This document shows positions 25,101 to 28,100 of a stretch of 64,000 bases of DNA, piece by piece (the stretch's first letter is position 1; every line of letters starts with the position of its first letter). This DNA comes from Escherichia coli (GTDB lineage Bacteria; Pseudomonadota; Gammaproteobacteria; Enterobacterales; Enterobacteriaceae): the NCBI RefSeq assembly GCF_048403405.1, contig NZ_CP183129.1; one strand, written 5' to 3'. A program made the position numbers.

Positions 25101-28100
25101 TTAGCCTCGGTCTGGCCTCGTCTTTTAACCTCGATGCGGTGAAAACAGTCGGGCGTGTCTCTGCTTATGAAGCGGCAGATGATGGCCTGAATATGACCTG
25201 GGCACCAATGGTCGATGTCTCGCGCGATCCGCGCTGGGGACGTGCTTCCGAAGGTTTTGGCGAAGATACGTATCTCACCTCAATAATGGGGAAAACCATG
25301 GTGGAAGCGATGCAGGGTAAAAGTCCGGCAGATCGCTACTCGGTGATGACCAGCGTCAAACACTTTGCCGCTTACGGCGCGGTAGAAGGCGGTAAAGAGT
25401 ACAACACCGTCGATATGAGTCCGCAGCGCCTGTTTAATGATTATATGCCGCCGTACAAAGCGGGGCTGGAGGCAGGCAGCGGCGCGGTGATGGTGGCGCT
25501 GAACTCGCTGAACGGTACGCCAGCCACCTCCGACTCCTGGCTGCTGAAAGATGTTCTGCGCGACCAGTGGGGCTTTAAAGGCATCACCGTTTCCGATCAC
25601 GGCGCAATCAAAGAGCTGATTAAACATGGCACGGCGGCAGACCCGGAAGATGCGGTGCGCGTGGCGCTGAAATCCGGCATCAACATGAGTATGAGCGACG
25701 AGTATTACTCGAAGTATCTGCCTGGGTTGATCAAATCCGGCAAAGTGACCATGGCAGAGCTGGACGATGCAGCCCGCCACGTACTGAACGTTAAATATGA
25801 TATGGGGTTGTTTAACGACCCATACAGCCATTTGGGGCCGAAAGAGTCTGACCCGGTGGATACCAATGCCGAAAGCCGCCTGCACCGCAAAGAAGCGCGT
25901 GAAGTGGCGCGCGAAAGCCTGGTGTTGCTGAAAAACCGTCTCGAAACGTTACCGCTGAAAAAATCCGCAACCATTGCGGTGGTTGGCCCGCTGGCAGACA
26001 GCAAGCGTGACGTGATGGGCAGCTGGTCGGCGGCAGGGGTTGCCGATCAATCCGTGACCGTGCTGACCGGGATTAAAAATGCCGTCGGTGAAAACGGTAA
26101 AGTGCTGTATGCCAAAGGGGCTAACGTTACCAGTGACAAAGGCATTATCGATTTCCTGAATCAGTATGAAGAAGCGGTCAAAGTCGATCCGCGTTCGCCG
26201 CAAGAGATGATTGATGAAGCGGTGCAAACCGCGAAACAATCTGATGTGGTGGTGGCTGTGGTCGGTGAAGCACAGGGGATGGCGCACGAGGCTTCCAGCC
26301 GTACCGATATCACTATTCCGCAAAGCCAACGTGACTTGATTGCGGCGCTGAAAGCCACCGGTAAACCGCTGGTGCTGGTGCTGATGAATGGGCGTCCGCT
26401 GGCGCTGGTGAAAGAAGATCAGCAGGCTGATGCGATTCTGGAAACCTGGTTTGCGGGGACTGAAGGGGGGAATGCGATTGCCGATGTATTGTTTGGCGAT
26501 TACAACCCGTCCGGCAAGCTGCCGATGTCCTTCCCGCGTTCTGTCGGGCAGATCCCTGTGTACTACAGCCATCTGAATACCGGTCGCCCGTATAACGCCG
26601 ATAAGCCGAACAAATACACTTCGCGTTATTTTGATGAAGCTAACGGGGCGCTTTATCCGTTCGGCTATGGTCTGAGCTATACCACTTTCACCGTCTCTGA
26701 TGTGAAACTTTCTGCGCCGACCATGAAGCGTGACGGCAAAGTGACCGCCAGTGTGCAGGTGACGAACACCGGTAAGCGCGAAGGGGCGACGGTAGTGCAG
26801 ATGTACTTGCAGGATGTGACGGCTTCCATGAGTCGTCCGGTGAAGCAGCTGAAAGGCTTTGAGAAAATCACCCTGAAACCGGGCGAAACCCAGACCGTCA
26901 GCTTCCCGATTGATATCGAGGCGCTGAAGTTCTGGAATCAACAGATGAAATATGACGCCGAGCCTGGCAAGTTCAATGTCTTTATCGGCACTGATTCCGC
27001 ACGCGTTAAGAAAGGCGAGTTTGAGTTGCTGTAATGCTTTAGTAAGGGCGCGACGTCTGCGCCCTTTAAGTATTTATCTGATTCTGCAACTGAATCCGCC
27101 CAGACAGGCTAACCCTGTCATTATCAACTATGCTTTTCTCTTAATTCGCTGAAAACAACAGTAAAAGAATGAGGAAAGCATCATGCCACTCTCAAAGCTC
27201 TGGGCAGGTTCATTGGTTTTGTTGGCAGCCGTGAGCCTGCCGCTACAGGCGGCTTCCCCGTTAAGGTCGGTTCAAAAATCGATACCGAAGGCGCGCTGCT
27301 CGGCAATATCATTTTGCAGGTGCTGGAAAGTCACGGTGTTCCTACGGTAAATAAAGTGCAACTGGGAACGACTCCCGTGGTGCGCGGGGCGATTACTTCC
27401 GGTGAACTGGATATCTATCCGGAATATACCGGCAATGGGGCGTTCTTCTTTAAAGATGAAAACGATGCTGCGTGGAAAAATGCCGGGCAAGGCTACGAGA
27501 AAGTCAAAAAGCTCGATGCAGAGCAAAACAAGTTAATCTGGCTGACGCCTGCGCCTGCAAATAACACCTGGACCATCGCCGTGCGTCAGGATGTGGCAGA
27601 GAAAAATAAACTCACTTCGCTTGCCGACCTGAGTCGTTATCTGAAAGAGGGCGGCACCTTCAAACTGGCGGCCTCGGCAGAATTTATTGAACGCGCCGAT
27701 GCGTTACCCGCGTTTGAAAAAGCCTATGGCTTTAAGCTCGGTCAGGATCAGTTGCTGTCACTGGCTGGTGGCGACACGGCGGTGACGATCAAAGCCGCTG
27801 CCCAGCAAACCTCTGGCGTTAATGCGGCGATGGCTTACGGCACTGACGGCCCGGTCGCGGCGCTGGGGCTGCAAACCTTAAGCGATCCGCAAGGCGTGCA
27901 ACCTATCTACGCGCCTGCACCAGTGGTGCGTGAGTCGGTGTTGAAAGAGTATCCACAAATGGCACAGTGGCTACAGCCAGTCTTCGCCAGCCTCGATGAA
28001 AAAACATTGCAGCAACTGAATGCCAGCATTGCTGTGGAAGGACTGGATGCCAAAAAAGTGGCTGCCGACTACCTGAAACAAAAAGGGTGGACGAAGTAAT

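What the first reader, a model, noticed from the sequence alone, without database searches (positions are those of the whole stretch)
27250..27350. osmF (yehZ) is frameshifted just after its signal peptide (apparent 1-nt loss in a C4G run)
The osmF start and signal peptide are in one frame, which stops at 27348-27350. The mature binding-protein sequence continues in the +2 frame, which is open from 27173 but has no ATG/GTG/TTG before 27314. The junction falls in gcttccccgttaagg, consistent with loss of one G. The substrate-binding protein of the YehZYXW osmoprotectant transporter would therefore not be exported or made, while yehYXW appear intact. With the cirA nonsense codon this suggests strain-specific gene inactivation, or homopolymer sequencing errors.
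Basis: partly seen in the sequence, partly recalled or inferred. Interest (0 to 1): 0.4.

Follow-up and report, generated by a model that had tools for sequence, protein, structure and literature searches.

The report
One-base deletion breaks osmF gene
In this E. coli strain the gene for the binding protein of a minor glycine-betaine importer is broken by the loss of one C from a run of five, an ordinary strain-private lesion or residual sequencing error in a dispensable gene.

Summary
The frameshift is in the sequence as described, with one correction. The lost base is a C from a C5 run (TCC CCC GTT becomes TCC CCG TTA; the C4 run is at 27256-27259), not a G.

The start and signal peptide (27183-27350, 55 aa) stop at TAA 27348-27350. 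The rest of OsmF lies in the +2 frame, with no start codon before 27314. yehY, yehX and yehW are intact.

Seven near-identical E. coli genomes all carry C5 and an intact 305-aa OsmF. Three of them were compared over the full 64 kb. The window has only two differences not seen in any of them: this deletion and one synonymous SNP.

The same C4 allele recurs on at least seven other haplotypes. It is in 5 of 5,426 complete genomes and in many short-contig assemblies. Some of these assemblies are clean and some have other shortened homopolymers nearby.

A control with the 29 other coding C5/G5 runs in the window gave 0-9 deletion alleles per site (mean 1.6). The osmF site is therefore not exceptional.

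There is no slippery heptamer, no downstream structure and no conservation, so this is not programmed frameshifting.

The cirA nonsense codon is a real mutation shared by a sub-clone, not a strain-private one.

Verdict: ordinary pseudogenisation (about 0.55) or assembly error (about 0.4). Interest is low.

The parts
27183..27350 (+). Truncated osmF reading frame. It holds the Sec signal peptide (codons 1-23), the native residues A24-S25-P26, then 29 out-of-frame residues and the stop TAA at 27348-27350.
   Evidence: The chain of PDB 4WEP starts at residue 24 of the intact protein.
27256..27259 (+). C4 run, the site of the one-base deletion. It is C5 in all seven near-identical genomes and in nearly all E. 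coli.
27260..28099 (+). Remainder of osmF (V27 to K305 and the stop), now in the +2 frame. It carries the OpuAC substrate-binding domain. The first possible restart codons are TTG 27314, GTG 27320, GTG 27356 and GTG 27377.
   Evidence: PF04069, E = 2e-53 on the 261-aa restart ORF.
28106..29263 (+). yehY, permease, intact. Its GTG start lies 6 nt after the osmF stop.
29256..30182 (+). yehX, ATPase, intact.
30187..30918 (+). yehW, permease, intact.

Best explanation
A spontaneous one-base deletion, by replication slippage in the C5 run at codons 25-26, has turned osmF into a pseudogene in this strain.

Consequences for the protein. Translation starts normally and makes the signal peptide plus A-S-P. 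It then reads 29 wrong residues and stops at 27348-27350. After export and cleavage only a 32-residue peptide would remain, and no OpuAC binding domain reaches the periplasm. Any restart at TTG 27314, GTG 27356 or GTG 27377 would give a truncated cytoplasmic protein without a signal peptide.

Consequences for the transporter. Without its binding protein, the YehYXW permease and ATPase cannot import glycine betaine. Expression of yehYXW is probably also reduced, because about 750 nt of osmF are left untranslated upstream of a yehY start with no strong ribosome-binding site.

Why it is tolerated. [quoted passage not shown] The loss should be nearly neutral, which fits the recurrence of the same lesion in unrelated lineages.

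Shown: the deletion, the truncated frame, the intact neighbours, privacy within the clone, and recurrence elsewhere. Inferred: slippage as the cause, polarity on yehYXW, the fate of the peptide, and near-neutrality.
For: The deletion is the only indel and one of only two private differences across 64 kb against three relatives. The window is therefore not a noisy assembly. By contrast, four of the seven other haplotypes carrying C4 sit in assemblies that have one or more further frameshifting or homopolymer deletions close by, up to four within 4.7 kb.

The identical C4 allele occurs on at least seven other haplotypes, 18-115 SNPs apart over 2.9 kb. These include stretches with no other indel: ETEC1701 over 6 kb, and the Logan contigs L016 and L017, the latter with 12 similar places, over 4.7 kb. 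The lesion therefore does arise and persist in nature.

PGAP annotates it as a frameshifted pseudogene in ETEC1701, ETEC1702 and 2014C-3307.

The Prodigal-type 240-aa restart product is on record on 169 contigs in 224 blocks, 219 of which have a longest contig under 50 kb.

[quoted passage not shown] 2015, title as cited in PMC6207618); millimolar binding (PMC5894108).
Against: No reads are available, and a lone C deletion in a G/C homopolymer is also the typical residual error of long-read assemblies.

All seven closest complete genomes have C5. All 33 contigs read that carry the clone's BglX allele have an intact 305-aa OsmF next door. No second, independent assembly therefore confirms the allele on this haplotype.

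The window has one private indel to one private SNP. That ratio is higher than the roughly 1:10 expected for real mutations (my knowledge of E. coli mutation-accumulation studies).

Several other C4 carriers look like error cases. 2014C-3307 also has shortened G runs in galS and yehQ within 40 kb. L018-L022 carry other homopolymer deletions nearby.
Confidence: 0.55

Rival explanations
1. Assembly or consensus error. The strain really has C5 and an intact osmF, and one C was dropped from the homopolymer during base-calling or polishing.
For: The change is a single-base deletion in a G/C homopolymer. It is private to this assembly among seven near-identical genomes and among 33 contigs of the same BglX allele.

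The same site is shortened in assemblies that also have other shortened homopolymers nearby: L018-L022 and 2014C-3307, which has galS, osmF and yehQ affected. Two carriers, ETEC1701 and ETEC1702, have different haplotypes, are both pig isolates from Belgium and have neighbouring accession numbers, which suggests a single project.

The control shows that one-base deletions in C5/G5 runs occur at a background of about 1.6 genomes per site among complete genomes.
Against: The window has no other indel against its relatives in 64 kb, despite 39 C5/G5 runs and about 170 A5/T5 runs. It is therefore not an error-rich assembly. The same allele exists in otherwise clean assemblies. A C5 run is short for systematic error in Illumina or Sanger data.
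Confidence: 0.4
2. The C4 allele is still expressed. Either the ribosome slips back one base when the prolyl-tRNA on CCG re-pairs with the overlapping CCC, or the polymerase stutters during transcription. Either would restore A-S-P-V-K and give some full-length OsmF, as a programmed or phase-variable switch.
For: A -1 shift on C-CCC-G would regenerate exactly the wild-type protein (read directly from the sequence). The allele recurs in several lineages.
Against: There is no X XXY YYZ heptamer. The 82 nt downstream fold no better than shuffled sequence (z = -0.23). That sequence is in any case the ordinary coding sequence of the wild-type gene. The arrangement is not conserved: 7 of 7 relatives and about 99.9% of genomes have C5. 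A run of 4-5 bases is far shorter than known slippage or phase-variation tracts. The recurrence rate is no higher than at control runs.
Confidence: 0.02

Closest known systems
Intact OsmF (YehZ) of the E. coli osmF-yehYXW operon (PDB 4WEP; WP_001131232.1 in the near-identical genomes)
   Same: The DNA is identical apart from one base. It has the same promoter-proximal position after bglX, the same signal peptide, the same OpuAC domain (read in the +2 frame) and the same downstream yehY, yehX and yehW.
   Different: The reading frame breaks at codon 27, so the signal peptide and the binding domain are no longer joined. The predicted product is 55 aa instead of 305 aa.
osmF pseudogenes annotated 'frameshifted' by PGAP in E. 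coli ETEC1701, ETEC1702 and 2014C-3307
   Same: They have exactly the same C5-to-C4 deletion at the same codon.
   Different: They lie on different haplotypes (49-101 SNPs over 2.9 kb), so they are independent events or independent errors. ETEC1702 also has a frameshifted yehY.
cirA pseudogene in the same window (W243*, TGA 865-867)
   Same: It is another transport-related gene inactivated in this strain.
   Different: It is a base substitution, not a homopolymer indel. It is shared by five assemblies of the sub-clone, so it is certainly real and older.

Membership tests
OsmF/YehZ, OpuAC-family periplasmic substrate-binding protein | OpuAC substrate-binding domain (Pfam PF04069) | tested here: met
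   The +2 frame ORF from 27314 matches PF04069 at E = 2e-53, profile positions 22-257. The intact allele matches positions 2-257. The match to PDB 4WEP has E = 2e-180.
OsmF/YehZ, OpuAC-family periplasmic substrate-binding protein | N-terminal Sec signal peptide fused in frame to the binding domain | tested here: not met
   The signal peptide is present (27183-27251), but the frame breaks at codon 27 and stops at 27348-27350. No start codon exists in the domain's frame before 27314.
OsmF/YehZ, OpuAC-family periplasmic substrate-binding protein | Operon context osmF-yehY-yehX-yehW downstream of bglX | tested here: met
   The gene order and sequences are identical to the annotated relatives.
Pseudogene by frameshift | An indel relative to intact orthologues that causes a premature stop | tested here: met
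   There is a one-base deletion against 7 of 7 near-identical genomes, giving a stop after 55 codons.
Pseudogene by frameshift | The lesion is present in the organism's DNA and is not an assembly error | not testable with these tools
   No reads are available. The indirect evidence is mixed.
Programmed -1 ribosomal frameshift site | Slippery heptamer X XXY YYZ | tested here: not met
   The sequence is GCT TCC CCG TTA, which contains no heptamer of that form.
Programmed -1 ribosomal frameshift site | Stimulatory downstream structure | tested here: not met
   The fold of 27259-27340 has z = -0.23 against shuffles.
Programmed -1 ribosomal frameshift site | The split-frame arrangement is conserved among relatives | tested here: not met
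   All seven closest genomes and about 99.9% of complete E. coli genomes have the single-frame C5 allele.
Phase-variable contingency locus (simple-sequence repeat switch) | A long homopolymer tract, with ON and OFF lengths both common in the population | tested here: not met
   The tract is only 5 bases long, shortened here to 4. The C4 allele is in 5 of 5,426 genomes. That rate is within the range of the 29 control C5/G5 runs, which gave 0-9 per site with a mean of 1.6.

The most novel reading that the evidence does not exclude
The C5 run at osmF codons 25-26 is a recurrent loss-of-function hotspot that selection favours. On this reading, independent lineages repeatedly switch off the binding protein of the YehZYXW betaine importer because losing it is advantageous in some host or environmental niche.
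Probability: 0.07. Interest if true: 0.35.

Novelty: already known. Interest (0 to 1): 0.08.

Why it matters
It matters little. If real, this strain lacks a minor, low-affinity glycine-betaine importer whose loss is expected to be nearly neutral. If it is an artefact, it is one residual homopolymer error in an otherwise clean assembly.

The practical value is for annotation. osmF here should be flagged as frameshifted, as NCBI's pipeline already does for the same allele in other genomes. The cirA stop should be treated separately, as a genuine marker of the sub-clone.

The control search also gives a rough background figure. About 0.03% of complete E. coli genomes carry a one-base deletion at any given coding C5/G5 run in this region.

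Tried and rejected
1. The 55-aa frameshift product and the 261-, 259-, 247- and 239-aa restart products were looked up by exact sequence in the 15-billion-protein collection. None was found. This turned out to be uninformative, because gene callers use the GTG 27377 start (240 aa), which is on record.

2. I hoped that the contigs carrying the 240-aa product would include the window's own clone. All eight fetched are other haplotypes.

3. I looked for the frameshift among contigs carrying the clone's BglX allele. All 33 read had intact OsmF, but only 24 of 2,793 blocks were read.

4. I wanted to use essential genes (metG, folE) as an error-only control. They contain no C5/G5 run in this window, so only non-essential genes could serve as controls.

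5. Programmed frameshifting and phase variation were rejected.

6. The simple promoter and terminator scan of 26950-28200 found nothing. This is uninformative for a sigma-S-dependent promoter.

7. A literature search for osmF pseudogenes found nothing relevant.

8. The source genome of the window could not be identified. No complete RefSeq E. coli genome is identical across the site.

Full report
**Observation**

The window carries bglX, then osmF-yehY-yehX-yehW. An ATG at 27183, preceded by GAGGAAA, opens a 55-codon frame that ends at TAA 27348-27350. Its first 26 residues, MPLSKLWAGSLVLLAAVSLPLQAASP, are the OsmF signal peptide plus three mature residues. The rest of OsmF is read in the +2 frame, which is open from 27173 to 28099. 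That frame has no ATG, GTG or TTG before TTG 27314.

Alignment with near-identical genomes shows a single gap. The relatives read GCT TCC CCC GTT AAG (A-S-P-V-K) and the window reads GCT TCC CCG TTA AGG. One C of a C5 run has been lost, not a G. The remaining C4 run is at 27256-27259.

**Placement in the protein**

The intact protein has 305 residues. Pfam OpuAC (PF04069) covers residues 26-300. The crystallised OsmF chain (PDB 4WEP) starts at residue 24, so signal-peptide cleavage follows LQA at residue 23. The frame therefore breaks three residues into the mature protein, at the very start of the binding domain.

The largest restart ORF (261 aa from TTG 27314) would lack the signal peptide and the first 21 profile positions.

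**Relatives**

Of 5,426 complete RefSeq E. coli genomes, seven are essentially identical to the window over the 25 kb compared. All seven have C5 and an annotated, intact osmF.

I compared the whole 64 kb with three of them: strain 3059, isolate 68 and MS 69-1. These differ from the window at 6, 3 and 5 positions respectively. Only two differences are absent from all three, and so private to the window among them. One is the osmF deletion. The other is a synonymous CGA/CGG change at 52170 in a DUF4132 gene. No other indel is private to the window, although it contains 39 C5/G5 runs and about 170 A5/T5 runs. This is therefore not an assembly riddled with homopolymer errors.

**The cirA comparison**

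The cirA stop (TGG to TGA, codon 243, 865-867) is a different kind of event. It is identical in isolate 68, MS 69-1, strain 4621 and TUM1226. GN02461 and TUM14771 have TGG and an intact gene. Strain 3059 has TGG plus its own 2-nt deletion. The truncated 242-aa product is on record on at least 1,000 contigs.

The cirA stop is thus a genuine, inherited marker of a sub-clone, with a second independent inactivation in 3059. It does not bear on whether the osmF lesion is real.

**Recurrence of the same deletion**

- A 71-mer with C4 matches exactly one other complete genome, ETEC1701.
- The C5 72-mer matches 556 genomes exactly.
- A 40-mer centred on C4, which wild-type genomes cannot seed, finds five genomes: ETEC1701, ETEC1702, 2014C-3307, A1.S1.160 and 19KM2326N. 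NCBI's pipeline annotates osmF as 'frameshifted' in the three I opened.
- In the 15-billion-protein collection, the 240-aa product that gene callers make from GTG 27377 is on 169 contigs in 224 blocks. In 219 of those blocks the longest contig is under 50 kb.
- Seven of the eight loci fetched have exactly the C4 allele.

None of these loci is the window's haplotype. Together with the complete genomes, they form at least seven other haplotypes, 18-115 SNPs apart over 2.9 kb.

Their quality is mixed. ETEC1701 (over 6 kb), L016 and L017 (L017 with 12 similar places) have no other indel in the stretch compared. L018-L022 have one to four further homopolymer deletions within 4.7 kb, for example in the bglX G6 run at 26465. 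2014C-3307 also has shortened runs in galS and yehQ. C4 at this site is therefore sometimes a real inherited allele and sometimes probably an error.

**Control for a hotspot**

I built the one-base-deletion 40-mers for all 29 other coding C5/G5 runs in the window and searched them together, with the osmF 40-mer as a positive control. The positive control recovered its five genomes.

The controls gave 46 occurrences, a mean of 1.6 per site and a range of 0-9. The highest were yehC with 9, cirA at 1189 with 8, galS with 5, and yehE, yehB and yehA with 4 each. osmF's five is in the upper part of this distribution but is not an outlier. There is no sign of a special hotspot or of selection for loss.

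**Privacy within the clone**

The window's BglX allele is listed in 2,793 blocks. All 33 contigs read have the intact 305-aa OsmF next door. The deletion is therefore rare or private in its own lineage.

**Mechanism and consequence**

The likely cause is replication slippage in the C5 run (inferred). The product is a 55-aa pre-peptide that would be exported and cleaved to a 32-residue peptide (inferred). No binding domain reaches the periplasm.

Restart products would be cytoplasmic and truncated. In the sequence as written, the binding-protein-dependent YehYXW importer is therefore non-functional.

Some polarity on yehYXW is likely. About 750 nt upstream of yehY become untranslated, and yehY starts at a GTG 6 nt after the osmF stop without a strong Shine-Dalgarno sequence (read from the sequence, plus inference).

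According to the literature, osmF-yehYXW is sigma-S dependent (Checroun and Gutierrez 2004, cited in PMC10654073). [quoted passage not shown] 2015, cited in PMC6207618), with millimolar binding (PMC5894108). Near-neutral loss is therefore plausible.

**Alternatives**

Programmed frameshifting or phase variation can be set aside, for four reasons:

- There is no slippery heptamer.
- The downstream RNA folds no better than shuffled sequence (z = -0.23).
- The tract is only 4-5 bases long.
- The split arrangement is not conserved.

What cannot be settled is whether the deletion is real or an artefact in this particular genome. In favour of a real mutation: the window is otherwise free of indels, and the allele demonstrably exists in clean assemblies elsewhere. 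In favour of an error: the allele is private, no second assembly of this haplotype confirms it, and a lone C deletion in a G/C run is the classic residual long-read error. I put a real mutation at about 0.55, an artefact at about 0.40, and anything more exotic at a few per cent.

**Verdict**

This is an ordinary frameshift lesion of a dispensable gene, and the same allele is already annotated as a pseudogene in other genomes. It is already known in kind and of low interest.

Noticed in passing
window 139-2118 (cirA); stop codon at 865-867: cirA carries W243* (TGG to TGA). The same stop is present in isolate 68, MS 69-1, strain 4621 and TUM1226. GN02461 and TUM14771 are intact, and strain 3059 has TGG plus its own 2-nt deletion at the position of window 392-393. 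CirA has therefore been inactivated at least twice within one clone. The 242-aa truncated product is on at least 1,000 contigs. From my own knowledge, CirA is the receptor for colicin Ia/Ib and for catecholate siderophores, and a route of cefiderocol entry, so repeated loss could reflect selection.
   Followed up: partly
window 1189-1193 (cirA G5 run) and 59721-59725 (yehC C5 run): In the control search, these two runs had the most one-base-deletion alleles among complete E. coli genomes, 8 and 9 genomes respectively. This is more than the osmF site, which had 5. I did not check whether these carriers are clonal or independent.
   Followed up: no
window about 43025-54272, minus strand: Three large tandem paralogues of the DUF4132 family lie here: yehI plus two genes of about 1,265 aa, one of which also has a WGR domain. 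They share an internal repeat of 186 bp at 88.7% identity, at 50260-50445 and 54070-54255. The window's only private SNP (52170, synonymous Arg701) lies in one of them.
   Followed up: no
window 26465-26470 (bglX G6 run): This G6 run is shortened to G5 in four of seven unrelated assemblies fetched (L019-L022), and these also show other homopolymer deletions. It looks like a site prone to sequencing error. The window itself has G6 and an intact bglX.
   Followed up: partly
window about 35565-37565 (yehQ) and 17966-19402 (mdtQ): Both genes are intact in this clone. They are annotated as pseudogenes in other lineages: yehQ is frameshifted in 2014C-3307 and ETEC1702, at different positions, and mdtQ has an internal stop in ETEC1702.
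   Followed up: no
L023 1-54 (Logan ERR13115040 contig end): One contig carrying the 240-aa OsmF restart product has a different lesion. Homology to osmF stops at window 27352 and 29 unrelated bases follow to the contig end. This may be an insertion element or a rearrangement within osmF.
   Followed up: no
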